Below are positions 5,637-24,333 of a stretch of 29,178 bases of DNA, piece by piece. The position numbers and the translations under genes were made by a program. Source of the DNA: an uncultured archaeon (GTDB lineage Archaea; Asgardarchaeota; Thorarchaeia; Thorarchaeales; Thorarchaeaceae); the NCBI GenBank assembly GCA_964631415.1, contig CAZVZC010000027.1:1-29178 (forward strand), given 5' to 3'. The notes below the pieces were generated by a model. The model did not search any database and had not been told where the DNA came from. It worked only from the letters and a program-made list of their open reading frames with translations. Numbering within the stretch: position 1 is the first letter of the stretch; each line of letters opens with the position of its first letter.

Positions 5637-5663
5637 AGCAGACGCCTCCGTCTTGCCTTCTCA

Positions 5664-6796: not shown

Positions 6797-6835
6797 TTGA
6801 AGCTTTTGACGACGCTATTCTGACAACGCGCAGTT

Positions 6836-7231
6836 CTATTGACCTTTGTAAGACAAGAGCCGCCTGATTCTCGTGGCCGCCTTGCCCAACGCCCTTGAGT
6901 GGTATCGGACGTTGCGGTCCATGACAGCTGCCAGCAAGATGGGCTGGCTCTTGCCCGATGATATCTTCTTAAAGACGGCCTTTCCCAGACTGCAGCGGAC
7001 GGATATGTCCCTGATCTCTCCGAGACCGAGCTCCTTGCGCACCCTGTCCACGGACGAAGTTATGTAGCCTGACATTGCCGCCACGATGTCTTTGTCTGTG
7101 CCAGGTGAAGTGGCGAAAGCCATGGTGAAGCCATCATCCCGAGCAAGGACTGAGGCTTTGTACTTGCCTTCCTTGTTCATCGCTTCCAAGATGCCTGTAA
7201 GCTCCCTGTAGTCAGGCCGTTCCATAGACAT
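6836..7231 (-). CDS. Roadblock/LC7 (MglB-like) domain protein
   Basis: ASVLARDDGFTMA...DIVAAMSG...ELGLGE...LAAV pattern, about 131 aa. GGAG SD before ATG 7231. Confidence 0.85.
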   Translation of the reverse strand: MSMERPDYRELTGILEAMNKEGKYKASVLARDDGFTMAFATSPGTDKDIVAAMSGYITSSVDRVRKELGLGEIRDISVRCSLGKAVFKKISSGKSQPILLAAVMDRNVRYHSRALGKAATRIRRLLSYKGQ

Positions 7232-7271
7232 AATCTCCGATCTGCGCTGTAACCTGACTGTCACTTACATG

Positions 7272-7286
7272 CCTATTAAACAATAA
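7272..7286 (-). promoter_or_regulatory. Putative TATA box (TTTAAT) for the roadblock-Trx-KaiC cluster
   Basis: Minus-strand TATTGTTTAATAG, an AT-rich patch in the divergent intergenic region, about 45 nt upstream of the start. Confidence 0.4.
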
Positions 7287-7428
7287 CGTACATTCCCCAC
7301 ACCACCTGATATGACTCATGCTGTGTCAAGCACAGGGCCTAGCCCGCCAATCCCTACAGAAGAGGCTCATCGGCAGTATGGTTTTTAGGAGGACTGGCCC
7401 ACATCGTCTTGTTCAGGATGTGGAGCGG

Positions 7429-7989
7429 ATGCCTGCCGAGTATCGGTTCAAGATTGTGATGCTAGGAGATGGAGCAGTTGGAAAGACTGCTCTGACTCTC
7501 CGGTTCACTCAGAACCATTTCGACAGTGACTACAAGAGGACTATCGGCAGTGACTTCGCTGTGAAACGAATGCACGTGCCCCAGAGGGACGCCAACTGCA
7601 CCATTCAGGTATGGGACCTCGCAGGACAGCCGCGGTTCGAGATAGTACGGCAGTCATTCTATCGAGGCTCGCGGGGCGGGCTCTTGGTGTTCGACGTGAC
7701 GCGACGCAGGACGTTCCTTAACCTTGAACAGTGGAAAGAGGAGGCGTTCAAGAACACAGGCAGGCCTATCCCGCTTGTTGTCGTGGCAAACAAGGTAGAT
7801 CTTGCAGAGAGCAGGGTTGTCACAACTGAGGAGGGAAAGGAGTACGCTGACAAGAACAAGTTTCTCTATGTTGAGTCAAGCGCACTCTCGGGAGAAAACG
7901 TAGAATGTGCCTACGTGAGCCTGTGCACGATGATGATTGACGCACCGAAGATCAGCTCCCCGGGCGAAACGTCAAGTCCAACCACCTGA
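7429..7989 (+). CDS. Rab-like small GTPase (Ras superfamily)
   Basis: FKIVMLGDGAVGKT, TIGSDF, WDLAGQPRF, FYRGS, NKVD, ESSAL. Probable start at ATG 7429 (MPAEY). No terminal prenylation motif. Confidence 0.93.
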   Translation: MPAEYRFKIVMLGDGAVGKTALTLRFTQNHFDSDYKRTIGSDFAVKRMHVPQRDANCTIQVWDLAGQPRFEIVRQSFYRGSRGGLLVFDVTRRRTFLNLEQWKEEAFKNTGRPIPLVVVANKVDLAESRVVTTEEGKEYADKNKFLYVESSALSGENVECAYVSLCTMMIDAPKISSPGETSSPTT

Positions 7990-8006
7990 ATCAAGGAACT
8001 GCTGCA

Positions 8007-9137
8007 CTAGGTCTGTACTCTCGTGGTCCCTTTCAGTAGACCTAGAGCCTTCTTACATTGCCAGACCGCGTAGAAAAGTCGCTTCTCACGAAGCGTTTCT
8101 TCATCGTAGGCCGAGCGAAGCTGTTCGAACTTCTTGATGAGTTCCTCTCTGTGGGCCAGACCAGCATCAGCTTCAATCTCTTTTAGAAGCGACTGGAACG
8201 GAGCTAGGGTGGCACCAAAGTCAGACGCCTCCCAACGAATGATAGCTCCCGTACCATCAGAGGTCAGAAAGGCGCTCTCGTTAGGAAACCACTCGACCCC
8301 ATCGATCTCACTCGCAGTAGACCCCCGTCCTTCCACCGTGTATCTCTCGGTGGACCATACGAGTATCTCCTTATCGCTCGAGCCTGTTGCCAAGTACTTC
8401 CCGTCGGTACTGAATGCTACAGAACGCACTTCTCCAGTGTGACCGGGCAGCGTTCTATCGACCTTGAGTGATTGACCGCTCGTGTCCCAGAGAATCACAT
8501 TGCGGTCAGATGAACCAGAAGCGAGTCTGGCGCCATCGAGCGAGAAACGGAGAGTGTGTACAGCAGTCCTGTGTTCAGTGAACTTGTCTATCATCTTGCC
8601 AGTGTCCGGATTCCACACGCAAATCGTCGAGTCGACTCCCCCTGAAACAATCCTGTCGCCTCTTGGATCCCATTGACATGTTTGGACATATAGCGAGTGC
8701 CCCCTCAGCTGTTGCTGCTTGGAGCGGTTGTTGACATCCCACACTATCAAAGTGGTGTCGCCACTGCTGGAAACAAGCCGATCCCCGGACGGAGAGAAAG
8801 ATAGGGAGAGCACAGGATATGTGTGACCCTCCAGCTTGGCCATCTGAGTGCCGGACCTAATGTCCCAGAGCTTGATGACTCGGTCGACACCGCCAGTGGC
8901 CAGAATGTCGCCCTTGGGGCTGAAAGCAATGGAGGTACACAGAAACCCGTCCTCCATTTTCTGCATCTCCTCACAGTTGCGTGCATCAAAGAGGCGTATC
9001 GTGCGGTCCTGCATGGCCGCGGCAATCATTCTCCCAACCTTGTTCATTGCGAACCGCCGGGTGATCTCTCCTCCCTGCGAGGCAGCAGGTCTTAGTGTTC
9101 GCGGTCTCAGAAACAGTGGCGCTTCTTCTTGGCCCAT
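8007..9137 (-). CDS. WD40-repeat beta-propeller protein with C-terminal helical extension
   Basis: About seven repeats of the GH...(S/T)xxD..I..WD type (KLWD, IVWD, CVWN, ILWD, LVWS, IRWE). Start is ATG 9137 or GTG 9146. Confidence 0.92.
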   Translation of the reverse strand: MGQEEAPLFLRPRTLRPAASQGGEITRRFAMNKVGRMIAAAMQDRTIRLFDARNCEEMQKMEDGFLCTSIAFSPKGDILATGGVDRVIKLWDIRSGTQMAKLEGHTYPVLSLSFSPSGDRLVSSSGDTTLIVWDVNNRSKQQQLRGHSLYVQTCQWDPRGDRIVSGGVDSTICVWNPDTGKMIDKFTEHRTAVHTLRFSLDGARLASGSSDRNVILWDTSGQSLKVDRTLPGHTGEVRSVAFSTDGKYLATGSSDKEILVWSTERYTVEGRGSTASEIDGVEWFPNESAFLTSDGTGAIIRWEASDFGATLAPFQSLLKEIEADAGLAHREELIKKFEQLRSAYDEETLREKRLFYAVWQCKKALGLLKGTTRVQT

Positions 9138-9252
9138 CGTTCTCACTCACTAGACTTCGGAGGACATGAAGCACCTCGGACTGACGCTAAAAGCATTGTG
9201 AATATAGTACAAACAATCGGGATTCGACCGTGAGCTCAAGGCAGCTGACGAC

Positions 9253-9828
9253 CTAGGCCATGCCGCCTGCCTCAAGAATCTTGATTGCCAGTTCTAAGAA
9301 AGCCGCTTCCACGTTCTCGCCCGTCTTTGCAGAGGTCTCGAGGAAGGAACAATGTACGCCAGTCCGAGTGATGGCCTCTGCGTACTTCTGACCCTCCTGA
9401 GTGGAAACAATCGTCTGTCGCATCACAGGGTTGTCCTTGAACTGCTCTCTGAGGTCTGTCTTGTTACCTATGAGGACAATCGGGATCTTCTTTCCCGAGT
9501 TCGTCCAGCATTCGTTCAACCAGTTGGGCAGGTTGTCAAAGGATGCCCGTTCTACCGTTGAGTAGACTGCAAGTGCGCCCTGAGCGCCCCTGTAGAAGGT
9601 GGACCTCACACTCTTGAAGTGTTCCTGACCGGCCAAGTCCCATATCTGTATGCTGACGTCGTGTCCACCCTCCAGATGCATCTTCTTTACCGCGAAGTCT
9701 GCGCCTATGGTGATCATGTACTGGGCGCGAAAACCCTCACCCATGTAGACCTTTCTTAGTGTGGTCTTTCCAACCGAACCGTCGCCCATGAGGACGACCT
9801 TGAACAACGCATTTACGATAGTGACCAC
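9253..9828 (-). CDS. Rab-like small GTPase with an insertion after G4
   Basis: FKVVLMGDGSVGKT, TIGADF, WDLAGQEHF, FYRGA, NKTD, ETSAK. Start uncertain (GTG 9828 used; the ORF-track extension to 9975 looks non-coding). Confidence 0.92.
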   Translation of the reverse strand: MVTIVNALFKVVLMGDGSVGKTTLRKVYMGEGFRAQYMITIGADFAVKKMHLEGGHDVSIQIWDLAGQEHFKSVRSTFYRGAQGALAVYSTVERASFDNLPNWLNECWTNSGKKIPIVLIGNKTDLREQFKDNPVMRQTIVSTQEGQKYAEAITRTGVHCSFLETSAKTGENVEAAFLELAIKILEAGGMA

Positions 9829-10112
9829 CTCACGGAATCTTTCGCATTGGTGTCTGCTGGTGAGGTCCAGAGAGCTGTCTTGTGGACACTCTTGGGAACG
9901 GAGTATCTTCGAGTTATTAAAGTTCGTTGTGGCGGGCTGTTGAAACGGGTTCTGTGGCATCTTTACTTTCGGCAATCAGTCTGCCTCTACACTGTCTCCT
10001 TGGATAGACACTCACATCTCGCAAAGGCCAGAATCATCCAATGTGGCAGTGTACGCTGCTAGTCCAGAGACCGTTTCCCAGTCATATGGTCTCGTGAATC
10101 GAGGCTGATAGC

Positions 10113-14227: not shown

Positions 14228-15004
14228 TCACTTCTTGCTGCGGCGCCACTCCTCGAAGATGGCCATGTACATACATTCTCGAGGACTGATCCACATCTCG
14301 GCCGAGTCGAAAGACTTGTCGACAAACTCAACCGGTGCTCCGCGTACGAGAGCCGCCGGCACAGACTCATCAGCCTCACCGATGACAAGCTCACAGGCGG
14401 AAGCCAAATTGTCCGCGAGGCCACGGCGCTTGATCTTCAGTACATTGCCAAAGAGGTCCTTCTTGCCACGGTCATCGCCAACTGGTACGAAGCCTGCCAC
14501 GCCCAGGGCAAGCCCCACGTTGCCCAGTCGAAGTGGTTGCGTGCGGCTGTCAATCACCATGGTGCCTATTGTCTTGCCGAGGCGCTGCTTCACTTGATCC
14601 CTGAGCCGGACTGCACTCGCCCTTGGATCTGCCGGGAGGAGACACGCGTGGCCTGGTGGAACATTAGACTTGTCGACCCCTGCGTTGGCCATGAGTGTAT
14701 TGTTCTTGATTGTGAGCAGGACATGTTGGATGCCGCCGAGTATCTCATCGGACTCACGAATGACAAGCTCAACGACCTCGGGAATCATATCATACTTGAT
14801 CGCTAGCTTCTTGGCTTGAGCAGACGGTTTCACTTCTGAGAGCTTTACGATCCGTCCCTCAGTCGTTGCGAGTGGGGTCTCCGCAGCCACTAAGATGTCG
14901 TTGTCTTGGATGCTGTATCCCGTGTGCGAGAGTCCATCGAACAAGACATCTAGGAAGTCGTCGTTCGGAGTTATCGTTCGTGTCTTTATTGGGATTACTA
15001 GCAA
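14228..15004 (-). CDS. cofE: Coenzyme F420-0:L-glutamate ligase family
   Basis: DILVAAET...EGR, ANAGVDKSN, LLPADP, DSRTQPLRLG, DLFG..L, ADNLAS...GEADE. Probable TTG start at 15004 with a GAGGT SD. Confidence 0.85.
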   Translation of the reverse strand: MLVIPIKTRTITPNDDFLDVLFDGLSHTGYSIQDNDILVAAETPLATTEGRIVKLSEVKPSAQAKKLAIKYDMIPEVVELVIRESDEILGGIQHVLLTIKNNTLMANAGVDKSNVPPGHACLLPADPRASAVRLRDQVKQRLGKTIGTMVIDSRTQPLRLGNVGLALGVAGFVPVGDDRGKKDLFGNVLKIKRRGLADNLASACELVIGEADESVPAALVRGAPVEFVDKSFDSAEMWISPRECMYMAIFEEWRRSKK

Positions 15005-15100
15005 TTCGTCCGACCTCGCACGAGCAGAGCTTGGATACAAGATAAAGCCACCCAAACAACCGCGGGTGGCCGAAGGAGCGTCCCACTGACGCAATACGAC

Positions 15101-16546
15101 TCAAACGGTTTCTGACCTGTGACTTGTACGACCGCCCCGCTCTTCCTTCTGCAGCTTCATGCGTGCTCCCATGATACATGAATCGCTCTTGCGTCCGCCC
15201 ATGGGGTTCTCTCTCGTTCCCATCGAGTTCATGCACCTTGCTGCTACAGCCGCGCCCATTGCTAGGCCGTCCTCGACGAACACCGTCTGATGAGAAACGC
15301 TCCAACGGGAACCATCTCTTGTCTGCAGCCCATTCACGATCATGTTTGGTTTGGCTCCAGTGATGATCGCCCTGCCGGTCAGGCCAAGCGAAGTGTTACT
15401 CAGAATGAGTCCACGCTCTTCAGCCACGCCGAGTATCCTCTGCAGGGTGTCGAACTGTACCTGGTCTATGACACCCATCATCAACTCAGTATCACCAGTT
15501 TCGACGATTCCCGCTCCAACACGCTCTATCTCTCTGATCGCCGAGCCGTTCGAACCCGCATCCACGCCTATGAGCAGCACTCCAGATTCCTCGGCGGCGT
15601 CGGGGTTCACAGGGACAGTCCCGAATCGTCTGGCAGAACGTGGCACGACCTCGACACGGATCTGCTTGTGTACCTGCTCTACCCATGCCGGATCTACTTG
15701 GATACGACGGCGACTGGGATGAGTCGTCAGGTCAAGAACACAGCCTGCAGGTCCGATGGCCTCTGCTCCACCTCTGGCAAGAGCATCTGGAATAGCCCCT
15801 GCAAGCCCAGCGAAGGAACCAATGGTTCTGGCATACGGATAACTGTCATCAGCGATCCTTCCAGCAAGTGTAGTGCCGAAGTCCAGCACCATGACAGGGT
15901 TTCTGAAGTCTATGCCGCTGCCTTTGACAGCGCCTTTCAGACCGGCTGTGACTAGCTCCCCTTCCATCTCATTGGCCACGACCTCGGTGTTAGATGGCGG
16001 AAGACAGCTCGCCACTGCTCCATCGAAGTAGACCTTTCGCAGCCAGCTGAACTGCCGTATATCAGCAGGCAGATTCTCGGGGGCAATCGACGCAGTCATC
16101 TTGCTCGGGGGGACTCCAGCAGCAAGACAGCCGTCCGCCAGCGCCCTCACCATCTCCCCGACCTCAGAGGGCTGTGCAAATCCGGCTGTCACACCTGTGG
16201 ACCGCACGACAAAGTGCAGGTCGCTATCAAGACTCAGCCGGGCCTTTGACAGTACAGATGTCAGTATTGCGGAAACGAGCTCCGAAACCGACTGACGAGT
16301 CAGTTCAACACCTGTGATGGTCCTCCCGAAGATCTGTTCTCCCTTCCCAGGAGGCCTCACGTCACGTGTGAATCTCACTTCCTTCGCAATCTCGAATATC
16401 TCTGCAGTCTTCAGGTTCGTGGACGCAATGATGCATTTGGTAGTTGTATTGCCCAGCTCCACAGAGGCCACAGTGTAGAATGTACCGGTCCTGAGTGAGC
16501 TCACCCCTATGTTCCTCGGCCTGATCACTTTGGCCTTCATGGACAT
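15101..16546 (-). CDS. Methanogenesis marker protein 14 (DUF2114-like), ASKHA-type ATPase fold
   Basis: VASVELGNTTTKCI, DLHFVVRSTGVTAGF, NEMEGEL, DFRNP...DFGTTLAGRI, GLAGAIPD, FVEDGLAMGAAVAARCMNS.GT..NP.GG. Lies next to mtrH, as in methanogens. Confidence 0.85.
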   Translation of the reverse strand: MSMKAKVIRPRNIGVSSLRTGTFYTVASVELGNTTTKCIIASTNLKTAEIFEIAKEVRFTRDVRPPGKGEQIFGRTITGVELTRQSVSELVSAILTSVLSKARLSLDSDLHFVVRSTGVTAGFAQPSEVGEMVRALADGCLAAGVPPSKMTASIAPENLPADIRQFSWLRKVYFDGAVASCLPPSNTEVVANEMEGELVTAGLKGAVKGSGIDFRNPVMVLDFGTTLAGRIADDSYPYARTIGSFAGLAGAIPDALARGGAEAIGPAGCVLDLTTHPSRRRIQVDPAWVEQVHKQIRVEVVPRSARRFGTVPVNPDAAEESGVLLIGVDAGSNGSAIREIERVGAGIVETGDTELMMGVIDQVQFDTLQRILGVAEERGLILSNTSLGLTGRAIITGAKPNMIVNGLQTRDGSRWSVSHQTVFVEDGLAMGAAVAARCMNSMGTRENPMGGRKSDSCIMGARMKLQKEERGGRTSHRSETV

Positions 16547-16561
16547 CGTCTTGTCACCTTC

Positions 16562-17497
16562 TCACAAGAGCCTACGGAAAGGATGGCTCTCGGACGGCTC
16601 GATGCCAGACTCAACACTGGCAGACTCTGCTGCGAACACATCGGCCATCGCTGCGACTGGGAAGACGGTCTTGGCATTACTGATTGGTCCATAGAGCACG
16701 AAGTTCGCACCCATCATCTGAACGATAAGACTCGATGCAGCATCACAAGTGCGGTAGGCATCTGGATTGGTTTTCTTGTACTTACGGAGCCAAGACCAAG
16801 AGCTTGGCGCATTGTGGACCCCTGATCCCGTTGGCAGGCCGTAGACAGCCTTTGCCACGAAAGTGAATGCTGCAGCGGTGCCTGCACCAGCACCCATCGC
16901 AGTGGTCGCAGTATCAATCAGGGGCTTTGTGATTCCGAGCTCTTCACTCAGCTTCAAGAGACCTTTGTCAAACCCAGGCACGCCCCGTTCAAGCACTGCC
17001 CGCTTGCCTGCGATGGACGAGTCGTGGGGGTTGAAAGCCAGAATGATAGCGCACTCATGCCTGATCTCTCTCAGGGCGTTAAGCTCTCCGTCCGAGGCGG
17101 AGATGTTGATTGAGTTGTAGATCGCCTTGTCGAGCAGGCCAGACTCTTCGGCGTGTTTCAGACCGGCAATCCTGACATCAGGCACTGTTGAGTCAATCAG
17201 AAACGGCGCATCCGTGATGTCGGTCACGAAGTCAATGTATCGGCACACAGCCTCCTCAGACTCTGAGAACAGTTGAACAAGGGCAGGATTCCCTGTTAGG
17301 TCTGCCATCTCATCTTGAGCCTTGATCAGAGTTTCAGCGGCTTTCCTGTCAAAGAGACCTTTCTTCGCGTCTTGCACTATGTCATGTCCTGTGTAGAAGA
17401 TCGTGCCTGCCAACACCGTGGGAATCTCGCCGGGTGTTCCTCCGATCCTGATGCCGCCAACGTTATGAATCACTTGCTCTTTCTCGAATACGAACAA
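16562..17497 (-). CDS. mtrH: Tetrahydromethanopterin S-methyltransferase subunit H family (canonical-like)
   Basis: MFVFEKEQ, PTVLAGTIFY..H, FLIDST, IYNSIN, GSGVHNAPSSW, VLYGPI. TTG start. Confidence 0.92.
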   Translation of the reverse strand: MFVFEKEQVIHNVGGIRIGGTPGEIPTVLAGTIFYTGHDIVQDAKKGLFDRKAAETLIKAQDEMADLTGNPALVQLFSESEEAVCRYIDFVTDITDAPFLIDSTVPDVRIAGLKHAEESGLLDKAIYNSINISASDGELNALREIRHECAIILAFNPHDSSIAGKRAVLERGVPGFDKGLLKLSEELGITKPLIDTATTAMGAGAGTAAAFTFVAKAVYGLPTGSGVHNAPSSWSWLRKYKKTNPDAYRTCDAASSLIVQMMGANFVLYGPISNAKTVFPVAAMADVFAAESASVESGIEPSESHPFRRLL

Positions 17498-17500
17498 AGC

Positions 17501-18193
17501 TCACAACTCCTGTCCTACAAGCGTGGTTCCCGTCTCGTCGCTCTTCATGACAACCCCGACAGTTGTTGGATGAGCGGAAACCACAGCGACCAAGTTCATC
17601 CTCGACACCAGTGAACTTGCAGGGTCGAGGGAAATGCCAAACTCTGGCAACAGAGCAATGGCCGCACCCATAGTCCTTGAACTCGCCTTGCCGGGTCTAG
17701 CCTTGAAGTCAACCCACATGGGATCAGCAGGGTATGGTCCCGGGTCTCTCGAAACGAGTCCATCTACCGCACGCGCAATCTTATCGGAATCCGTCACGTC
17801 CACCATGTTGACCAGCTGAACCTGACTTCGAAACCTCTCGACTGCCTCGATTGGCACGTTCTCAACATATGGTATTGCCCCCTCAGCCTTGAGTATCCTT
17901 CTGGTGCTGGGATCAATGCCGCCCTCATGAAGGCATTTCACCGAGGCTCCCGTCTTGTGTCCGGGAATCTCGGGGCCCGCGAGTATGAAAAACCTGATAC
18001 AGGGATTCGAAACCACGTTCACTATCATGCGCTCTATGCCTATGTTCTCTGTCTTGCATGTGCCTATTATGGCGTAGTCGGCAGGGACCTCTATCTTCTT
18101 CCCGAGAGTGCATATCGCCACACACGAAGTGGGGTTCTTCACCTCGAAGTCACCAGGAATGGGTGGCCAGTTCCTGTCGTCACTCTTACGCAC
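17501..18193 (-). CDS. mtrA: MtrA-family corrinoid protein, soluble, with a non-canonical C-terminal extension
   Basis: WPPIPGDF, VAICTL, GTCKTENIGIE, SNPCIRF, EIPGHKTG (His ligand), GAIPYVEN, ERFRSQV. No clear C-terminal TM anchor. Confidence 0.9.
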   Translation of the reverse strand: MRKSDDRNWPPIPGDFEVKNPTSCVAICTLGKKIEVPADYAIIGTCKTENIGIERMIVNVVSNPCIRFFILAGPEIPGHKTGASVKCLHEGGIDPSTRRILKAEGAIPYVENVPIEAVERFRSQVQLVNMVDVTDSDKIARAVDGLVSRDPGPYPADPMWVDFKARPGKASSRTMGAAIALLPEFGISLDPASSLVSRMNLVAVVSAHPTTVGVVMKSDETGTTLVGQEL

Positions 18194-18204
18194 TGTCGCA
18201 CCAC

Positions 18205-19122
18205 CTACTCAAACGACTTCGGTTCGAATATGGGCGTGGAAGCCCCAATTGCCTGCTGAGCCTCAGCAACTGCGGCTGCCATCGCATTTGCTATGAGTGA
18301 CACTGCTGTGAAGACATGCTTTGATCGAGCCATCGATCCGTACATGATGCAGTCTGTGGCAAATAGCTGTGCCGCAATAGTCGACGCCACTACGGCTGAG
18401 ATTTGTGTGGTTTCATCGTCCAATCCCGGCTGCTTGATGAACTTCCAAGCAGAGGGAGCGTTGTGAGGACCAAGGCATGTCGGCAGGCCCAGTTCCGACT
18501 TTATGGCCAGCATGGTTCTGTACTCCAAGCCGTAACCAGCACCCACAGGCATGGTGGCTGGGTCCACGACAATCTTCTCCATACCCATGGACTTCGCTTC
18601 TGAGATCATGGCCTTGATTGTTTCCATGCGATCAGCCAGACCTGTTGCTCTCGGAGACCATCCAAGGACGACCGCCATTCTGATGGGGCTGTTCCGAAGA
18701 AGCGCCTTCTCATCCTCCTTCATAGACAGGTTGATTGAGTTGTAGATAGCCCTGCCGCCGAGCCCACCCTGTTCACAGAACTGTATGGCGCGTCTTCTTG
18801 CATCTGCGCTGGTTGACTCGAACATGAAGGGACCCTCGAAGTTGTCCACTAGCCAAGACAGATGACGCACCATGGCCTCGGGAGTCCGGCCAAATGCTTG
18901 GATAATAAGAGGGTGACCCGTTTTATCCACCATCATGTTCGCAGTATCAATCCACTCTCTGGCCATCCGCTCGTCGAAGCTGCCCTCCTTCGGGTTCTTC
19001 ACTATTGGCTGAGTCTGGAAGAATAGACCGCCTATGAGCACAGTCGGGTTCTGCCCTGGCTGACCACCGATTGTCACGCCGCCGAAATCAAACGCTTGTT
19101 GCTCCTTCTTGAACACAAACAT
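18205..19122 (-). CDS. mtrH: Second, divergent MtrH-family pterin methyltransferase
   Basis: MFVFKKEQ, GGQPGQNPTVL, IYNSIN, HNAPSAW. Substitutions GGLFF, FMFEST and MYGSM relative to the canonical motifs. Confidence 0.85.
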   Translation of the reverse strand: MFVFKKEQQAFDFGGVTIGGQPGQNPTVLIGGLFFQTQPIVKNPKEGSFDERMAREWIDTANMMVDKTGHPLIIQAFGRTPEAMVRHLSWLVDNFEGPFMFESTSADARRRAIQFCEQGGLGGRAIYNSINLSMKEDEKALLRNSPIRMAVVLGWSPRATGLADRMETIKAMISEAKSMGMEKIVVDPATMPVGAGYGLEYRTMLAIKSELGLPTCLGPHNAPSAWKFIKQPGLDDETTQISAVVASTIAAQLFATDCIMYGSMARSKHVFTAVSLIANAMAAAVAEAQQAIGASTPIFEPKSFE

Positions 19123-19134
19123 AGTACCTCAACC

Positions 19135-20079
19135 TCATTTCGGTCGCGGGTAGAGTCCCGTGGCTCTCACGAGCTCAGGGATACTCTCTTCCCAGCCTAT
19201 TGCCATGATGTGGATGCCGCTGATTCCGCGAATGTCCCTGACTCTCCTGATTGTTTCCGCAGCAATCTTGAACCCTTCACTGCGAACAGTCTCTCTCTTC
19301 TCGTCACCCTTGAGACCATCGCCAGCCTGTTCCAGTCGTTCTACGAAGCTCTTCGGAATCTTGATGCCCGGGATTCGTTCGTTCATGAAGGTGGCCATTC
19401 TGGGTCCTTTGAGCGGTATCAGTCCTGCCAGTACCTTGACACCGAGCGGTTCGATTTGTTCCATGAACTCCTCCAGCCTGCTCGTGTCGTAGATGGCTTG
19501 AGTCTGGAAGAACTGTGCCCCTGAATCACGTTTCTTCTCAACACGCCAGACCTGTAGCTCCATCGGGTCGGCATTCGGGTTGAGAGTAGCACCGAGATAG
19601 AATGCCGGGACACCCTCAATCTCATCCCCAGCCAGATCCCGCCCTGTCATGAGATGACTCGCAAGCTGCAGAGCTTGGATGGAGTCAAGGTCATAGACCA
19701 TCTTCGCTTGGGGATGCGACCCTAGGATTGTGTGGTCGCCCGTGATGAACAGCACGTTCCGTATGCCAAGAGCATAAGCCCCATACAGTTCGCTCTCGAA
19801 GAGAATCCTGTTCCTGTCCCTCGCAGACATCTGCATTACGGGCTCAGCACCTGCTTGGATCACATAGCGGGCGCATACCATGCTGCTCATCGTTGGAATT
19901 CCACGGACGTTGTCCGTGATGTTGATTGCATCGCAGTAGTCTTTCACAAGGTTCGTTCTATCAAGGACGAGACTATAGTCTGCTCCATGCGGAGGACCCA
20001 CTTCGCCAGTGACTGTGAAATGACCACTCTCAAGCATCCGCTTGAGCCCGGTTTCAGGCAGACCTTGACTGTGTTTCAA
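19135..20079 (-). CDS. metF: Methylenetetrahydrofolate reductase
   Basis: GEVGPP, AINITD, RDRNR, LFITGD, K...GAQFFQTQ, GIHIMA. TTG start with GAGGT SD. Confidence 0.92.
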   Translation of the reverse strand: MKHSQGLPETGLKRMLESGHFTVTGEVGPPHGADYSLVLDRTNLVKDYCDAINITDNVRGIPTMSSMVCARYVIQAGAEPVMQMSARDRNRILFESELYGAYALGIRNVLFITGDHTILGSHPQAKMVYDLDSIQALQLASHLMTGRDLAGDEIEGVPAFYLGATLNPNADPMELQVWRVEKKRDSGAQFFQTQAIYDTSRLEEFMEQIEPLGVKVLAGLIPLKGPRMATFMNERIPGIKIPKSFVERLEQAGDGLKGDEKRETVRSEGFKIAAETIRRVRDIRGISGIHIMAIGWEESIPELVRATGLYPRPK

Positions 20080-20137
20080 ACTAACCTCGAATGTCGCTCG
20101 TCAGCAGGACCACATATCTCCTTTGGTCCTTCACAAT

Positions 20138-20794
20138 CTAGGTCTCTTGCTTGACAATCTCGCGAGGACCTCGCGCCAAGCTCCAGTCTTTGACCTTCCA
20201 GATGGACCGGAGGTTGTCAAGCTTCCCTAGGGCCTTCAGTCTATCGTATATCAGCTGCCACACACAGTCCGTATCGGGGTCTCTCTCACACTTACCGTCC
20301 ATTGACCCCCCGCAAGGGCCATTCAAGATACCCTTAGGGCACCGAGCAATGGGGCATATTCCCCCAGTCAGATCAAGGATACAATCTCCACACATGATAC
20401 AGCGCTCCTGATGAACGAACCTCTCTGGCATTGAACCAAGGAACTTCGAGTCAGCGGCAGGGAAGGACTCCTTCTCTGGCATGAGCTCTGTGAGCGTTTG
20501 AGTTGCCACACCACAGGCCTGTATCAGGAACGCATCTGCTCTCTCGAGCATCTCCCTGTTCTTCATCATCTCTTGTCTGATATTGTTGGTGTCACAGATG
20601 CCGCCCTCAACGAAGATCCTGCCCAGCACTTCCTTTCCGTTCTGCCGAAGGAAGTCCTCCATATCCTCAAGCTGCAAGATGCCGCCCACATCACACATCT
20701 GCGCGCACCCTGAGTCGCCGAACAACACTATCTTCCTGTATCCCTCCAACATCCGGAGAATCTCTTCTGGCGACTTCAGCTCCATGGCAATCAT
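20138..20794 (-). CDS. metV: MetV-like (MTHFR C-terminal domain) Cys-rich Fe-S/Zn partner of MetF
   Basis: CIMCGDC...GGICPIARCPKGILNGPCGG...KCE...CVW, ACGV; directly upstream of metF. Confidence 0.88.
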   Translation of the reverse strand: MIAMELKSPEEILRMLEGYRKIVLFGDSGCAQMCDVGGILQLEDMEDFLRQNGKEVLGRIFVEGGICDTNNIRQEMMKNREMLERADAFLIQACGVATQTLTELMPEKESFPAADSKFLGSMPERFVHQERCIMCGDCILDLTGGICPIARCPKGILNGPCGGSMDGKCERDPDTDCVWQLIYDRLKALGKLDNLRSIWKVKDWSLARGPREIVKQET

Positions 20795-20866: not shown

Positions 20867-22189
20867 CTAGCTTGTTTCCCCAGGTTCATCAGCATCCGGT
20901 GGTGCAGACTCGACTCTCCTCAGTGACCCTCTGGGGAGCATCTTGAACAGCTTCTGTGCAGCACCCAGACTCAGAGTTGCCTCCACCTCCACCCCGTCCT
21001 CTCCATAACTCTCGGTCTCGACGTGTCCTGCCTCATGTATCCCAGACAGCATAGACATGGTCGAGTCCCCATATGGCAACGTGATGGAGTACCTTGAGAG
21101 TCCTGGGAGGAGCCCCTCGACGACCTCGACCAGATTCGTGAGGTTGAGCCCATCTCTGGCAGAAACTGGCACGACTCTGGCACCAAGGTTCCTCAGCATA
21201 GAAACCCTCTCCTCGACCTCAGCCACACTAAGGAGGTCAATCTTGTTCAGGGCTGTCACAATGGGCACACTGTTGATGCCTATCTGGCTGAATGTGTCCA
21301 AGCATACATCGACCTTCCTCTTGACCTCTTGTAGCGAGCCAGAACCGTCGACAACAAGTATGATTACGTCAGCCTCTGCAATCTCCATCAGCGTGGTGTT
21401 GAAGGCACGAAGAAGCGACGCTGGAAGGTCACTTATGAAACCGACTGAGTCAGTCAGGACTACTCGTCTTCCGACCATGGTGAGCTCGGTTGATTTGGTA
21501 GACAATGTCGTGAAGAGTTGGTCAGCCACCTCCACGTCAGACCCTGTGAGAGCATGATGCAGTGTGCTCTTGCCGGCGTTTGTGTATCCTGCGAGTGCGA
21601 CTTCTGAGAAGCCCGCATCGATTCGTTTCTTACGTTTCATACTCTGTGATTCTGAGATCTTGTCGAGCTTGTCGTCAATCATCGCCACACGGTGTCTGAG
21701 CTCCATGATTCTGAGATTCAGGAGGTCTTCACCTGCACCAGTCTGCTCTCCAACGGGTTTCGCACCTGTGTGTTCTTTCTGCATGCGTGTCCTGAGCTGA
21801 TGCCGTACGAAAGGTATCTCATAGCTCAGCCTTGCCTGCTCTATCTGTAGCTTGGCCTGCACGGTGCGGGCGTGTTTGTCGAATATCTCAAGTATAAGCT
21901 GAGTCCGATCTCTAACCTCTGTCTTCCACTCCTCCATCAACCTGAACATTTGGCTGGACTTTAGTCGTGGGGAGTAGATCACGACATCCGGCTTGTTGAT
22001 TTCAATCCATGTCTTGATCTCTTCGACCTTTCCGCTTCTGATGCCAAACCTCGCAGACATGGGACCGACGATATTGAAGTCTCCTACTACCATGTACTCA
22101 GCAGTCAAAGCTAGCGCTTTGAACTCACCCATCAAATCGGGCTCGCCAGTACTGCGGTGCTGGACAAGCAATGCAGTAGGAGATGTCAT
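20867..22189 (-). CDS. hflX: Ribosome-associated GTPase HflX
   Basis: DRTQLILEIF..HA...AKLQIE.A, G1 GYTNAGKS, LFTTL, DSVGFI, AF.TTL.E, NKID. Probable start ATG 22189, with a TTTAAG box about 25 nt upstream. Confidence 0.92.
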   Translation of the reverse strand: MTSPTALLVQHRSTGEPDLMGEFKALALTAEYMVVGDFNIVGPMSARFGIRSGKVEEIKTWIEINKPDVVIYSPRLKSSQMFRLMEEWKTEVRDRTQLILEIFDKHARTVQAKLQIEQARLSYEIPFVRHQLRTRMQKEHTGAKPVGEQTGAGEDLLNLRIMELRHRVAMIDDKLDKISESQSMKRKKRIDAGFSEVALAGYTNAGKSTLHHALTGSDVEVADQLFTTLSTKSTELTMVGRRVVLTDSVGFISDLPASLLRAFNTTLMEIAEADVIILVVDGSGSLQEVKRKVDVCLDTFSQIGINSVPIVTALNKIDLLSVAEVEERVSMLRNLGARVVPVSARDGLNLTNLVEVVEGLLPGLSRYSITLPYGDSTMSMLSGIHEAGHVETESYGEDGVEVEATLSLGAAQKLFKMLPRGSLRRVESAPPDADEPGETS

Positions 22190-22299
22190 CAAGGACTGGT
22201 TGAAGCATACGGTCTTAAACCGATTGATTGTTCCCTGTTCCTGCGAGCCTCGCACCACTGGGCGCGCAAAAAGCTCCGTGACTACATGAGGGACTGCGA

Positions 22300-24333
22300 A
22301 TGACACAGTTCGAGCTGCGTGCAAAGGACGGCTTGGCAAGGCTTGGTCGGCTGGAAACCAACCACGGGAGTGTCACAACGCCCCTCTTGATGCCTGTTAT
22401 GCATCCCGCAAAGTCGGAAGTAAGCCCAAAACAGATGCTAGCCGAGTTCGGATTCCAGATGGTCATAACCAACTCCTACATCATCAAGTCGACAGAGCGA
22501 TTCAGGGAAACGGCTCTCTCGCAGGGTGTGCATGGCCTGCTTGACTTCAATGGTCCGATTATGACCGACTCGGGTACATACCAAATGTACTTTCACAGCC
22601 TTCCCGATGAGGAGATAGATCCAATCGAGATTGTGAGGTTTCAGCGGGACATCGGATCAGACATAGGCACGATTCTCGACACTTTCTCCGATCCTTATGT
22701 TGCAAAGGCGGCAGTCGAACGAGATGTCGCCATCTCTCTCGACAGGGCCAAGAGGTCCGTGGCTGAGAAAGGAAACATGCTCTTGGCTGGGACCGTGCAG
22801 GGCGGCATATACCCTGACCTCCGAGCACGCGCAGCGATGGACCTCGCCCCTCTTGACTTCGACCTCCATCCCATTGGTGGCGTCGTGCCGCTCATGGAGC
22901 AGTATCGATACTCTGACATAGTGAGAGCTACTCTCTCAGCCAAGAGGTACCTGCCTCCAGACCGGCCCGTACATCTCTTCGGCTGTGGACATCCGATGTT
23001 CTTTGCACAGGCAGCTCTCTTGGGCTGTGACCTGTTTGACTCAGCATCTTACGCCAAGTTCGCCGAGTCTGGAAGGATGCTGTTCCCAACGGGCACAGTC
23101 CAGCTCGACGGGCTGAGAGAGTTGCCCTGCGAGTGTCCCGTATGTAGCAGCACAACTGTTGAAAGGATTAAGTCACTTGACCCGGCCAGCCGCGAGCTAC
23201 TACTGACTAAACACAATCTCTACGTCACGGCGGCCGAAATGAGAAGAGTCAGGCAAGCAATCTCAGAGGGCAGGCTTCTGGAGCTCGCAGCCATCCGTGC
23301 AAGAGGCCATCCCACATTATATGAAGCTCTACGGGTCTTTCTAGGGTTGATCGGCGAGTTTGACTCGTCAGTGCCAAGTGCAAGTTCGAGTTCTGTCTTC
23401 TATACAGGTACCGAAACGTCCGAGCACCCGCTTCTGAGAGCTTTCCAAGACAGAGTCATAGAAACATACCCATATCGTAAGACAATGATGGTTCTGCTAG
23501 TACCACATCAGGGCGACAGACCGTTTTCTGATACATGTGCATTGATTGAGGACCAGATCAAAGTCAGAAGTCCGGAAGAAGTCGTCCTCATCTACGTCAC
23601 TCCCATTGGTGCAATCCCGTGGGAACTGGAACATGTCTTTCCTGCGCAGCAATGCTTATTCCCAAGCACCCTCGACGACTCGGACATCAAGATTGCTCAA
23701 GAGCGGGTCCAGCGCCTCGTCTCTAAACTATCGTTTGGCGAGTGTGTTTGGCTTTCGAGAGACAGCCCAACCGACCGGATCGTTTCGTATCTGTCCAGCT
23801 ATAACAAAGTTACGAAGGTTTCTGGTGTAACAGAGCTATTGGAGATGCTGCCCCAACAAAGACATCCACCTCCCTCTTGGACTACGAGGATGATTGCAGC
23901 CATCCTAGCGTATCAGTGGGGAGTGAGTGACGCAACGCCGCTAGGGCTGGAGCATCTCGAAACGAGCATCTCTAGGGCAACAGGCAAGATACGACATGTC
24001 ATGAAGGACGGAAAGGTGCTCTTCACACTTGTACCGATGACCGGTCTACTGACACCAACTTACGAGGGAGGATTAGCACTTCTTAGAGCGGGCGCAGGCA
24101 ACGACCACACGGTCATTGTCGAAGACGACGCTGTGGAGTTCGTGGCACAGGGCAAGTCTGCGATGACGAGATTCGTCCACTCGGCCAGTCCGAACCTGAA
24201 GGCAGGCGATGAAGCACTTGTCATGGACAACAGTGGACAGCTGCTAGGAGTCGGGAGGGCAGTGCTAGATGGATCGGAGATGAAGGCCTTCAAGCGAGGT
24301 GTCGCTGTTGTCATGCGGCACTCACGGCACTAG
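22300..24333 (+). CDS. tgtA: Archaeosine tRNA-guanine(15) transglycosylase with C-terminal PUA domain
   Basis: ITNSYI, MTDSG, VQGG, IGGVVPLME, HLFGCGHP, DLFDSASY, Zn motif CECPVC...HNL, PUA (FVAQGKS...GVAV). Confidence 0.93.
   Translation: MTQFELRAKDGLARLGRLETNHGSVTTPLLMPVMHPAKSEVSPKQMLAEFGFQMVITNSYIIKSTERFRETALSQGVHGLLDFNGPIMTDSGTYQMYFHSLPDEEIDPIEIVRFQRDIGSDIGTILDTFSDPYVAKAAVERDVAISLDRAKRSVAEKGNMLLAGTVQGGIYPDLRARAAMDLAPLDFDLHPIGGVVPLMEQYRYSDIVRATLSAKRYLPPDRPVHLFGCGHPMFFAQAALLGCDLFDSASYAKFAESGRMLFPTGTVQLDGLRELPCECPVCSSTTVERIKSLDPASRELLLTKHNLYVTAAEMRRVRQAISEGRLLELAAIRARGHPTLYEALRVFLGLIGEFDSSVPSASSSSVFYTGTETSEHPLLRAFQDRVIETYPYRKTMMVLLVPHQGDRPFSDTCALIEDQIKVRSPEEVVLIYVTPIGAIPWELEHVFPAQQCLFPSTLDDSDIKIAQERVQRLVSKLSFGECVWLSRDSPTDRIVSYLSSYNKVTKVSGVTELLEMLPQQRHPPPSWTTRMIAAILAYQWGVSDATPLGLEHLETSISRATGKIRHVMKDGKVLFTLVPMTGLLTPTYEGGLALLRAGAGNDHTVIVEDDAVEFVAQGKSAMTRFVHSASPNLKAGDEALVMDNSGQLLGVGRAVLDGSEMKAFKRGVAVVMRHSRH

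What the first reader, a model, noticed from the sequence alone, without database searches (positions are those of the whole stretch)
15101..20794. Soluble Mtr-derived methyl shuttle: metV-metF-mtrH'-mtrA-mtrH-marker 14, possibly a folate/methanopterin methyl bridge
Seen: six tightly packed co-oriented genes (gaps 3-58 bp), with two different MtrH paralogs flanking one corrinoid MtrA and no membrane subunits (MtrCDE) or mcr in the window. Known: MtrH moves methyl groups between a methyl-pterin and the MtrA corrinoid, and MetFV makes or oxidises methyl-H4folate in acetogens. Inference: one MtrH serves H4MPT and the other H4folate (or another methyl donor/acceptor), so CH3 passes between the two C1-carrier pools via MtrA without ion pumping. 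This would be a non-methanogenic use of methanogenesis machinery in an Asgard archaeon.
Basis: partly seen in the sequence, partly recalled or inferred. Interest (0 to 1): 0.82.

Follow-up and report, generated by a model that had tools for sequence, protein, structure and literature searches.

The report
Soluble Mtr-derived methyl-transfer operon, Thorarchaeia
A Thorarchaeota (Asgard) genome that cannot make methane keeps a membrane-free version of the methanogens' vitamin-B12 methyl-transfer machine, with two different methyltransferases around one cobalt carrier next to a folate-type reductase; the gene set is real, conserved and partly published, but the proposed folate-to-methanopterin methyl bridge is only one possible job and fits this genome poorly.

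Summary
Observation confirmed. Six co-oriented minus-strand genes (gaps 3-58 bp) encode MetV, MetF, a divergent MtrH (MtrH2), a soluble MtrA, a canonical-type MtrH (MtrH1) and DUF2114/marker 14. A CofE-like ligase follows 6 bp downstream. The order is conserved wherever the contig reaches, in 17 of 18 relatives' loci and in about 30 named Thorarchaeota loci. MtrE and McrA were found in 0 of 41 family genomes.

Both MtrH paralogs keep the pterin-site residues. MtrH2 is a Thor-only, fast-evolving clade with a rebuilt tail-binding region. MtrA keeps its cobalt-ligand histidine and has no membrane anchor. DUF2114 models confidently as an ASKHA-fold ATPase, so I infer a corrinoid (re)activase.

Interpretation partly supported. 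Folate enzymes are solid: Fhs, FolD, FtcD/FchA, GcvT and DHPS. No other user of methyl-folate was found. The methanopterin side is weak here: only Mch was found, with no true Mer, Ftr, CODH/ACS or methanopterin-synthesis marker. The operon persists whether or not those are present.

Best reading: a two-site corrinoid methyl relay between methyl-folate and a second pterin-type carrier (0.35).

Partly published (Adam et al. 2022). This scan has reported the same operon on at least eight other Thor genomes.

The parts
20138..20794 (-). MetV, the small Cys-rich partner subunit of MetF
   Evidence: PF12225/DUF5981, 119 bits. Cys-rich motifs are visible in the translation. It is missing next to MetF in about half of the Thor loci.
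19135..20079 (-). MetF, a methylene-tetrahydropterin reductase of the MTHFR family
   Evidence: PF02219, 115 bits. It matches the MTHFR half of NF006396 at 221 bits. It is only about 28 bits to solved MTHFRs. It is the single copy in the genome.
18205..19122 (-). MtrH2, a divergent Thor-specific MtrH-family pterin:corrinoid methyltransferase
   Evidence: - PF02007, 228 bits; below the TIGR01114 cut-off.
- It forms its own 50% cluster among 1.84 billion representatives; the next-best hit is 36% identical.
- It is a 100%-supported clade on a stem of 1.28 changes per site.
- On M. mazei numbering it keeps Asn129, Asp196, His229, Asn230, Gln75, Met200 and Pro201.
- It has Asp103->Glu, Thr32->Gly, a 3-residue deletion that removes Arg239, and Lys243->Gln (PMC12774963).
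17501..18193 (-). MtrA, the soluble cobamide carrier protein
   Evidence: - PF04208, 187 bits; 166 bits to M. marburgensis MtrA 8q3v_A.
- His79, which aligns with the cobalt ligand His84, is invariant in 16 orthologs.
- It has no TM helix.
- Its C-terminal tail is conserved (W160, LPE[YF]G, G222).
- It is the only MtrA in the genome.
16562..17497 (-). MtrH1, a canonical-type MtrH methyltransferase
   Evidence: - TIGR01114, 403.5 bits, above the cut-off; 276 bits to M. mazei MtrH 9qtp.
- It groups with methanogen MtrH.
- It keeps Asp103, Asn129, Asp196, His229, Asn230, Gln75 and Thr32, and the basic patch Arg239/Lys242/Lys243 (PMC12774963).
15101..16546 (-). Methanogenesis marker 14 (DUF2114; m26 of Adam et al.), an ASKHA-fold ATPase-like protein
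   Evidence: - PF09887, 590 bits.
- AlphaFold2 on 46 sequences gave pLDDT 90.3 and pTM 0.90.
- ASKHA-fold matches reach Z 17 (type III pantothenate kinase, FtsA, BcrAD- and HgdC-type activators). Diol-dehydratase reactivase scores Z 12.9, and RACo appears among the Foldseek hits.
- It lies just downstream of mtrH in Methanobacteriales and Methanomicrobiales.
14228..15094 (-). CofE-like gamma-glutamyl ligase paralog, the seventh gene of the unit
   Evidence: - A 6-bp gap follows marker 14.
- PF01996, 230 bits; TIGR01916 187.4, just above its cut-off of 180.65; TIGR04132 (folate-metabolism ligase) 102 bits.
- A second, stronger CofE (262 bits) lies on contig C3.
- It is conserved next to marker 14 in the Thor loci wherever the contig reaches.
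12701..14059 (-). LarC-like nickel-insertion protein; a conserved downstream neighbour whose membership is uncertain
   Evidence: PF01969, 286 bits. A 168-bp gap separates it from the CofE-like gene. It is conserved in position across the family.
20867..22339 (-). HflX GTPase; a conserved upstream neighbour, probably not part of the system
   Evidence: TIGR03156, 261 bits. A 72-bp gap separates it from MetV. It sits upstream in most Thor loci.

Best explanation
The operon encodes a soluble, non-pumping corrinoid methyl relay derived from the methanogen Mtr complex.

**Proposed mechanism**
- MtrA carries a cobamide on a conserved histidine and has swapped its membrane anchor for a conserved soluble tail.
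- Two catalytically intact pterin-type methyltransferases load and unload it: CH3-pterin A + Co(I)-MtrA <-> CH3-Co(III)-MtrA <-> CH3-pterin B.
- MetF (with MetV) makes or oxidises methyl-tetrahydrofolate. MtrH2, whose gene follows metF by 12 bp, most likely serves that methyl-folate.
- MtrH1, the canonical-type paralog, most likely serves a second carrier of the methanopterin type in lineages that have one.
- DUF2114, an ASKHA-fold ATPase, keeps or returns the cobamide in the active Co(I) state.
- The CofE-like ligase may build the glutamate tail of a pterin cofactor.

**Shown:** gene content, solubility, conservation, intact active-site residues, the ASKHA fold, and the folate enzyme inventory.

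**Inferred:** every substrate assignment, the direction of flow, the activase role, and the ligase role.
For: 1. One MtrA sits between two different MtrH genes. The arrangement is conserved across at least 16 genera and about 30 species. Two methyltransferases on one carrier make sense only if their substrates differ.
2. Both paralogs keep the pterin-ring residues defined for M. mazei MtrH and MtgA. MtrH2 also keeps the corrinoid contacts Met200 and Pro201 (PMC12774963; 10.64898/2026.07.03.736320).
3. MtrH2 has a rebuilt tail-binding region and a stem of 1.28 changes per site, against 0.24 for MtrH1. This points to a new specificity.
4. Folate metabolism is solid. Fhs scores 758 bits, above its cut-off, and sits next to FolD and FtcD/FchA. 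GcvT and a bona fide DHPS are also present.
5. Apart from MtrH-family proteins, no user of methyl-folate was found: MetE family 0 of 5, and no MetH- or AcsE-type Pterin_bind protein.
6. MetF co-occurs with a true Mer in 12 of the 18 operon loci. MetF is therefore not simply a Mer substitute, which suggests two carriers.
7. Mch is present in 40 of 41 family genomes.
8. DUF2114 has an ASKHA fold and is linked to mtr in methanogens (Adam et al. 2022, PMC9635834 supplement). The genome's other MtrH sits beside a RACo activase, a parallel pairing.
Against: - In this genome and its genus, only Mch was found as a producer or consumer of methyl-H4MPT. No true Mer was found (best 208 bits against a cut-off of 349), and no Ftr or CdhC.
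- The methanopterin-pathway synthase TIGR00284 passes its cut-off in only 4 of 25 family genomes, with a fifth split in two. All five also carry CdhC, which 8 of the 25 sampled genomes do.
- RFAP synthase was found in 1 of 25.
- The operon is kept everywhere, with 87-96% identity (93-94% for the two MtrH) within the genus. A function that needs methanopterin therefore cannot explain its conservation, unless the cofactor is salvaged or made by unrecognised enzymes.
- No residue pattern distinguishes a folate user from a methanopterin user. MtgA also has basic residues where MtrH1 has its patch.
- MetF of this archaeal type has been proposed to act on H4MPT in ANME-1 (PMC9012536).
- There is no biochemical or expression evidence.
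Confidence: 0.35

Rival explanations
1. Single-carrier entry or exit module. MetF and both MtrH act on one pterin pool, either a methanopterin-like carrier as proposed for ANME-1-type MetF, or folate alone. MtrA exchanges methyl groups with non-MtrH partners elsewhere in the genome, such as the MttB-like methyltransferase, its corrinoid protein and the MtaA/CmuA-family enzymes on contig C10. Methyl groups from methylated compounds would then enter the C1 oxidation route, or leave it to a thiol acceptor.
For: - The genome has an MttB-like protein (444 bits), an MtgC/MtbC-like corrinoid protein and two MtaA/CmuA-family proteins on C10.
- It also has MtrH3, RACo and a B12-binding protein on C34.
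- Chadwick et al. place Asgard MetF with the ANME-1 type, thought to use H4MPT (PMC9012536).
- Non-methanogenic methylotrophy has been proposed for other Asgard lineages (PMC11291895).
- This reading needs no second pterin pool, which suits lineages without methanopterin markers.
Against: - MttB-like genes were found in only 3 of 5 genomes, while the operon is found in nearly all.
- Those systems bring their own corrinoid proteins and their own MtrH3.
- Two conserved, different MtrH on one carrier remain unexplained.
- MetF co-occurs with a true Mer in 12 genomes.
Confidence: 0.25
2. Obligate MtrH1-MtrH2 heterodimer in which only one subunit does chemistry. After the MtrB-G stalk was lost, a duplicated MtrH became a docking or scaffold subunit for the tail of soluble MtrA. 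The module would then be a simple one-way methyl-pterin:cobamide methyltransferase whose acceptor enzyme is still unknown.
For: - MtrH is a dimer in the Mtr complex, and only the membrane-proximal subunit is thought to engage MtrA (PMC12774963).
- The two paralogs always occur together, flanking mtrA.
- The MtrA tail carries conserved motifs with no known role.
Against: - MtrH2 keeps every pterin-ring residue and the corrinoid contacts as invariant columns. Its mean column identity is 77%, higher than for MtrH1. That is not expected of a pure scaffold.
- No acceptor enzyme is encoded in the operon.
Confidence: 0.15
3. Biosynthetic methyl supply. Methyl-Co(III)-MtrA donates methyl groups to a cobalamin-dependent 'core' methionine synthase or another biosynthetic methyltransferase, as long suspected for methanogens.
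For: Core-MetE enzymes of methanogens and Dehalococcoides use methyl-corrinoids rather than methyl-pterins. MtrH and corrinoid proteins have been discussed as their donors (PMC7005905).
Against: No Meth_synt_2 (MetE or core-MetE) homolog was found in 5 of 5 genomes searched, three of them 97-98% complete. No MetH-type protein was found either.
Confidence: 0.05
4. Non-functional evolutionary remnant of ancestral methanogenesis.
For: Adam et al. describe Thor MtrAH and m26 as remnants of methanogenesis (PMC9635834).
Against: All genes are intact. The order is conserved over about 30 species at 50-75% identity, the catalytic residues are invariant, and the soluble MtrA tail and MtrH2 are derived yet conserved.
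Confidence: 0.03

Closest known systems
Thorarchaeial 'canonical MtrAH' plus marker m26 (DUF2114), described as methanogenesis remnants (Adam et al. 2022, Sci Adv, PMC9635834)
   Same: These are the same genes: MtrA, the canonical-type MtrH1 and DUF2114. The paper notes that Thorarchaeia lack the other Mtr subunits and that m26 is tied to Mtr by distribution, phylogeny and synteny.
   Different: In the text and supplement I could read, the paper does not describe the second, divergent MtrH2, the MetV-MetF genes in front, the CofE-like gene behind, the loss of the MtrA anchor, or a fold for m26. It proposes only a general methyltransferase role.
Energy-conserving MtrABCDEFGH complex of methanogens and ANME (PDB 8Q3V, 9QTP/9QTS)
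   Same: MtrA has the same fold and cobalt-ligand histidine. MtrH1 scores 276 bits to M. mazei MtrH with all pterin-site residues. The first half-reaction is methyl-pterin to cobamide.
   Different: There is no MtrE (0 of 41 genomes), hence no CoM-methylating, sodium-pumping half. MtrA has no membrane helix. A second MtrH takes the place of the acceptor side.
mtxXAH of Methanosarcinales (soluble MtrA and MtrH homologs of unknown function; Harms and Thauer 1997, cited in PMC12978539)
   Same: A soluble MtrA-like and MtrH-like pair sits outside the Mtr complex, with its function unresolved.
   Different: Mtx has one MtrH homolog and MtxX. It is not reported with MetF or DUF2114. Here there are two MtrH. 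MtxX was not searched for.
MtgA of Desulfitobacterium hafniense (methylcorrinoid:tetrahydrofolate methyltransferase, PDB 6SJ8/6SK4) with MtgB and MtgC
   Same: It belongs to the same MtrH/MtgA TIM-barrel family and shares the same four pterin-binding residues. It proves that the family can use folate.
   Different: All three Thor paralogs score far below the MtgA equivalog cut-off (164-205 bits against 550). MtgA works with a Rossmann B12-binding protein, not with MtrA.
MetFV of acetogens and the ANME-1/uncultured-archaea MetF clade
   Same: An MTHFR-family MetF has a MetV gene directly upstream. Asgard MetF is reported to group with the ANME-1 type (PMC9012536).
   Different: It is not linked to HdrA, MvhD or RnfC here, but to corrinoid methyltransferases. 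MetV is absent in about half of the Thor loci. Unlike ANME-1, this genome has Fhs, FolD, GcvT and DHPS.
ATP-dependent corrinoid activases and reactivases (RACo, RamA, AcsV; diol-dehydratase reactivase; HgdC/BcrAD-type activators)
   Same: DUF2114 has the ASKHA ATPase fold, with glycine-rich motifs in the expected places. It is genomically linked to a corrinoid protein.
   Different: No ferredoxin domain was found by Pfam. The structural similarity is generic to the ASKHA superfamily (TM 0.3-0.4; Z 13-17), with no closer tie to RACo than to kinases. The activase role is an inference.

Membership tests
Energy-conserving Mtr complex (MtrA-H) | Membrane subunits that methylate CoM and pump sodium (MtrE as proxy for MtrCDE) | tested here: not met
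   PF04206 was found in 0 of 41 family genomes, including the own genome. Controls responded in both methanogens.
Energy-conserving Mtr complex (MtrA-H) | MtrA with a C-terminal transmembrane anchor | tested here: not met
   The highest 19-residue hydropathy is 1.36, inside the Rossmann domain. Six methanogen MtrA reach 2.06-2.76 at the C-terminus.
Energy-conserving Mtr complex (MtrA-H) | MtrA cobamide-binding fold with the histidine cobalt ligand | tested here: met
   166 bits to 8q3v_A. His79 aligns with His84 and is invariant in 16 orthologs.
MtrH equivalog (TIGR01114) | Score above the curated cut-off of 271.4 bits | tested here: met
   MtrH1 scores 403.5 bits.
MtrH equivalog (TIGR01114) | Score above the curated cut-off, applied to MtrH2 | tested here: not met
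   MtrH2 scores 224.8 bits. It is a member of Pfam MtrH (228 bits) but not of the equivalog.
MtrH/MtgA pterin methyltransferases | Pterin-site residues Asp103, Asn129, Asp196 and Asn230 (M. mazei numbering) | tested here: met
   MtrH1 has all four. MtrH2 has three, plus Asp103->Glu, which is invariant in its clade (PMC12774963).
MtgA (methylcorrinoid:tetrahydrofolate methyltransferase, NF047990) | Score above the curated cut-off of 550 bits | tested here: not met
   MtrH2 scores 163.8, MtrH1 204.8 and MtrH3 203.9 bits.
MtgA (methylcorrinoid:tetrahydrofolate methyltransferase, NF047990) | Use of tetrahydrofolate as methyl acceptor or donor | not testable with these tools
   No sequence marker separates folate users from methanopterin users.
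MetFV-type methylenetetrahydrofolate reductase | MTHFR-domain protein with an adjacent MetV (DUF5981) gene | tested here: met
   PF02219 and PF12225, 58 bp apart.
MetFV-type methylenetetrahydrofolate reductase | Substrate is methylene-H4F rather than methylene-H4MPT | not testable with these tools
   Only indirect evidence is available: folate enzymes are present, and MetF co-occurs with Mer in 12 genomes.
Methanogenesis marker 14 (DUF2114, TIGR03285) | Full-length match above the curated cut-off | tested here: met
   578.8 bits against a cut-off of 274, and 590 bits to PF09887.
RACo/RamA-type reductive activases of corrinoid proteins | ASKHA ATPase domain | tested here: met
   The model has pLDDT 90.3. 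ASKHA matches reach Z 17, and RACo entries 3zyy and 4c1n are among the Foldseek hits.
RACo/RamA-type reductive activases of corrinoid proteins | N-terminal ferredoxin-type iron-sulfur domain and RACo middle domain | tested here: not met
   Pfam at E up to 10 finds only DUF2114. The true RACo on C34 shows Fer2, Raco_middle and RACo_C_ter.
CofE (F420-0:gamma-glutamyl ligase, TIGR01916) | Score above the curated cut-off of 180.65 bits | tested here: met
   It scores 187.4 bits, only just above the cut-off. The paralog on C3 scores 262.4, so which of the two is the housekeeping enzyme is open.

The most novel reading that the evidence does not exclude
The operon encodes the first enzyme system that passes methyl groups directly between the folate and methanopterin pools: a CH3-H4F:H4MPT transmethylase built from an MtrH1/MtrH2 pair and a soluble MtrA. 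Its DUF2114 partner would be the missing ATP-dependent activase of Mtr-type corrinoid proteins, in methanogens as well. The CofE-like gene would be the missing folate glutamate ligase of organisms in which no FolC was found.
Probability: 0.22. Interest if true: 0.8.

Novelty: new variant of a known kind. Interest (0 to 1): 0.55.

Why it matters
Mtr is the only energy-conserving step of hydrogenotrophic methanogenesis, and its soluble relatives outside methanogens have no assigned function.

This small soluble seven-gene unit is easy to express. It offers a direct way to test three things:
- whether MtrH-family enzymes can distinguish folate from methanopterin;
- what DUF2114 does. It is a marker found in methanogens and linked to mtr, and it could explain how the Mtr cobamide is kept active;
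- how Asgard archaea that lack methane metabolism and mostly lack CODH/ACS use methyl groups.

If the bridge reading were right, it would be a new link between the bacterial-type and archaeal-type C1 pathways in the lineage nearest to eukaryotes. If it is wrong, the operon still marks an unknown methyl acceptor or donor.

Tried and rejected
1. Complex prediction of the MtrA tail (residues 155-230) against MtrH1 plus MtrH2 scored 0.14, below the mark of 0.32. That is no verdict, and is not evidence either way.
2. A single-sequence AlphaFold2 run on marker 14 failed (pLDDT 33.6). It was replaced by the 46-sequence run.
3. Pfam at E up to 10 gave no second family for marker 14. The Atlas feature search pointed to EutA- and BcrAD-type ASKHA proteins only at 0.81-0.83, which is a lead and not evidence.
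4. No RNA holder is listed among public runs for this stretch. Read laying was not run, so nothing can be said about expression.
5. I tried to read substrate specificity from the basic patch Arg239/Lys242/Lys243. I rejected it as a discriminator because folate-using MtgA is basic there too.
6. I tried to place MtrH2 in the MtrH tree. Its clade is solid, but its sister group is unresolved in both FastTree and IQ-TREE. I make no claim about whether it arose by duplication inside Thorarchaeia.
7. The core-MetE methionine-synthase idea was dropped because no MetE-family gene was found.
8. 'MetF simply replaces Mer' was dropped because 12 genomes have both.
9. RFAP synthase was found in only 1 of 25 genomes, including genomes that do have the TIGR00284 synthase. 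I therefore treat its absence as weak evidence.
10. The bacterial promoter and terminator scan gave nothing above shuffles and does not apply to archaea.

Full report
**Observation**

The window is a whole 29,178-bp contig (C27) of a 2.16-Mb genome in 81 contigs, 85% complete. On the minus strand lie MetV (20138-20794), MetF (19135-20079), a first MtrH (18205-19122, here MtrH2), MtrA (17501-18193), a second MtrH (16562-17497, here MtrH1) and methanogenesis marker 14/DUF2114 (15101-16546). The gaps are 58, 12, 11, 3 and 15 bp.

A CofE-like gene follows after 6 bp, and a LarC-like gene after a further 168 bp. HflX lies 72 bp upstream.

**Organism and conservation**

Marker 14 homologs at 61-95% identity are named Candidatus Thorarchaeota. 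The nearest named genome is isolate OWC3. The window also holds Ras-family GTPases, a roadblock protein and a WD40 protein.

DUF2114 is present in 23 of 24 other genomes of the same family. The order (MetV)-MetF-MtrH2-MtrA-MtrH1-m14-CofE-LarC recurs in 17 of 18 loci taken from relatives. It also recurs in about 30 named Thorarchaeota loci, wherever the contig reaches far enough, at 50-75% protein identity. One locus (G016/L019) lacks MetV and MetF in the cluster. MetV is missing beside MetF in about half of the loci.

MtrE and McrA were found in 0 of 41 family genomes, while both methanogen controls responded. The genome has one MtrA and three MtrH.

**The proteins**

*MtrA.*
- It matches M. 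marburgensis MtrA at 166 bits.
- His79 aligns with the cobalt ligand His84 and is invariant.
- Its best 19-residue hydropathy is 1.36, against 2.06-2.76 at the C-terminus of six methanogen MtrA. The anchor is therefore gone.
- In its place is a tail with conserved W160, an LPE[YF]G motif and G222.

*MtrH1.*
- It passes the MtrH equivalog cut-off (403.5 bits).
- It groups with Methanosphaera and Methanosarcina MtrH.

*MtrH2.*
- It fails the equivalog cut-off (224.8 bits).
- It forms a single 50% cluster among 1.84 billion representatives, with the next-best hit at 36% identity.
- It sits on a stem of 1.28 changes per site, and its sister group is unresolved.

*Active-site residues.* Both paralogs were mapped on the M. 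mazei MtrH residues given in PMC12774963.
- Both keep Asn129, Asp196, His229, Asn230 and Gln75.
- MtrH1 also keeps Asp103, Thr32 and the basic patch Arg239/Lys242/Lys243.
- MtrH2 has Glu for Asp103 (invariant in its clade), Gly for Thr32 and Trp for Phe156.
- MtrH2 also has a three-residue deletion that removes Arg239, Gln for Lys243, and an acidic run behind. It keeps Met200 and Pro201, which touch the corrinoid (10.64898/2026.07.03.736320).
- Folate-using MtgA is also basic at the patch, so the patch does not tell folate from methanopterin.

*Marker 14.*
- Folded with 46 sequences from Thor and methanogens, it gives pLDDT 90.3 and pTM 0.90.
- It is an ASKHA-fold protein. The matches include type III pantothenate kinase, FtsA, Kae1 and BcrAD/HgdC-type activators at Z 15-17, diol-dehydratase reactivase at Z 12.9, and RACo among the Foldseek hits.
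- The resemblance is to the superfamily, not to one member. No ferredoxin domain was found by Pfam.
- In Methanobacteriales and Methanomicrobiales the gene lies just downstream of mtrA...mtrH. This agrees with Adam et al..

**Genome context**

Folate side:
- Fhs (758 bits, above its cut-off), FolD and a fused FtcD/FchA sit together on contig C62.
- GcvT sits beside a bona fide DHPS on contig C1.
- Fhs and FolD were found in 5 of 5 genomes.
- FolC was found above its cut-off in 0 of 25 family genomes.

Methyl-folate users: the MetE family was found in 0 of 5 genomes, and no MetH- or AcsE-type pterin-binding protein was found.

Methanopterin side:
- Mch was found in 40 of 41 genomes.
- A true Mer was found in 21 of 41, with none in the own genus.
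- Ftr was found in 4 of 5, but not in this genome.
- CdhC was found in 13 of 41, in five genera, with none in the own genus.
- The methanopterin-pathway synthase TIGR00284 passes its cut-off in 4 of 25 genomes, plus one split copy. All five also carry CdhC, which 8 of the 25 sampled genomes do.
- RFAP synthase was found in 1 of 25.

Other corrinoid systems:
- Contig C34 carries MtrH3 (closest to a Bathyarchaeota protein), a full RACo and a B12-binding protein.
- Contig C10 carries an MttB-like methyltransferase, an MtgC/MtbC-like corrinoid protein and two MtaA/CmuA-family proteins.

**Mechanism**

One cobamide carrier flanked by two intact but different pterin-type methyltransferases is most simply a ping-pong relay. 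One enzyme methylates Co(I)-MtrA and the other takes the methyl group off. If both used the same substrate the cycle would do nothing.

MetF's product, methyl-folate, has no other detectable user, and mtrH2 starts 12 bp after metF. I therefore assign methyl-folate to MtrH2, and a second carrier of the methanopterin type to the canonical MtrH1. MetF and a true Mer occur together in 12 of the 18 operon loci, which favours two carriers over a simple replacement.

The ASKHA protein would keep the easily oxidised cobamide in the Co(I) state. This is by analogy with RACo, which sits beside MtrH3 in the same genome. All of this is inference. Only the parts list, their integrity and the inventory are shown.

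**Why confidence is limited**

In this genus nothing but Mch speaks for a methanopterin pool, and neither a consumer of methyl-H4MPT nor the cofactor's biosynthetic markers were found. The genome is 85% complete, but its genus mates agree.

Yet the operon proteins are 87-96% identical within the genus (93-94% for the two MtrH). The bridge could be the ancestral role, retained in the CODH/ACS-bearing genera, where it would feed an archaeal acetyl-CoA synthase from a folate methyl branch. A role that holds in every lineage is still missing.

The rivals are:
- a single-carrier module that exchanges methyl groups with MttB- or MtaA-type partners;
- a heterodimer in which one MtrH is a scaffold;
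- a biosynthetic methyl supply;
- a dead remnant.

**What is known and what is new**

Adam et al. (2022) reported canonical MtrAH without other subunits in Thorarchaeia and tied m26 (DUF2114) to Mtr. Valentin-Alvarado et al. (2024) described MtrA-like, MtrH and fused MtrAH proteins in other Asgard lineages. Cai et al. noted that Thorarchaeota may use both carriers.

I found no paper describing:
- the second, Thor-specific MtrH;
- the linkage to MetVF and to a CofE paralog;
- the soluble MtrA tail;
- the ASKHA fold of marker 14.

This scan has already reported the same operon on at least eight other Thor genomes, with the same cautious verdict. This report adds four things:
- the residue map;
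- the link between methanopterin-synthesis markers and CODH/ACS, with the operon present regardless;
- the failure to find FolC;
- the second CofE copy.

**Verdict**

This is a real, conserved, partly published system, and a new variant of a known kind. The folate-methanopterin bridge is possible (about one in three for a two-carrier relay, lower for the full story) but is not supported by this genome's own inventory.

Noticed in passing
window 14228-15094 (-) and genome contig C3:4747-5376: There are two CofE paralogs. The operon copy only just passes the CofE cut-off (187 against 180.65 bits), while the C3 copy scores 262. FolC was found above its cut-off in 0 of 25 family genomes, although a true DHPS is present. 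The operon copy is therefore a candidate for the missing folate (or pterin) glutamate ligase.
   Followed up: partly
genome contig C34:6694-10007 (locus L005): A third MtrH (MtrH3, closest to a Bathyarchaeota protein) sits beside a complete RACo/AcsV-like reductive activase and a B12-binding corrinoid protein. This is a classical methyl-corrinoid:pterin module, separate from the window's operon.
   Followed up: partly
genome contig C10:33723-38303 (locus L141): This cluster holds a non-pyrrolysine MttB-like methyltransferase (444 bits), an MtgC/MtbC-like corrinoid protein and two MtaA/CmuA-family methyltransferases in an organism without Mcr. MttB-like genes were found in 3 of 5 Thor genomes.
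   Followed up: partly
genome contig C62:630-4828 (locus L142): Fhs, FolD and a fused FtcD/FchA (glutamate formimidoyltransferase plus methenyl-folate cyclohydrolase) lie in a row. This forms a compact folate C1 cluster.
   Followed up: partly
relatives G010, G013, G017, G020, G041 (genome search): The methanopterin-pathway synthase TIGR00284 was found only in genomes that also carry the acetyl-CoA synthase subunit CdhC: 5 of 8 CdhC-positive genomes against 0 of 17 CdhC-negative ones in the sample. Mch was found in 40 of 41 genomes regardless.
   Followed up: partly
loci L081, L091, L098, L109, L117, L118, L122, L128: In Methanobacteriales, Methanomicrobiales and related MAGs, marker 14 lies directly downstream of mtrA...mtrH. 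This is not so in Methanosarcinales or Methanococcales loci.
   Followed up: partly
loci L046 and L047 (JGI metagenome contigs): An orphan MtrH-like gene (P0007, one of the nearer relatives of MtrH2) lies close to a LarC-type nickel-insertion gene. This echoes the LarC neighbour of the Thor operon.
   Followed up: no
window 4920-9975: This stretch holds two KaiC-like ATPases, a thioredoxin/KaiB-like protein, a roadblock/LC7 protein, two Ras-family small GTPases and a WD40 propeller. It is an Asgard-style signalling cluster.
   Followed up: no
window 2563-4950 (-): A 795-residue open reading frame has no Pfam match.
   Followed up: no
window 22300-24333 (+) and contig C34:14374-16326 (-): There are two archaeosine-type tRNA-guanine transglycosylase-like genes. 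The window copy has the TGT catalytic domain. The C34 copy has only DUF5591, C2 and PUA domains.
   Followed up: no
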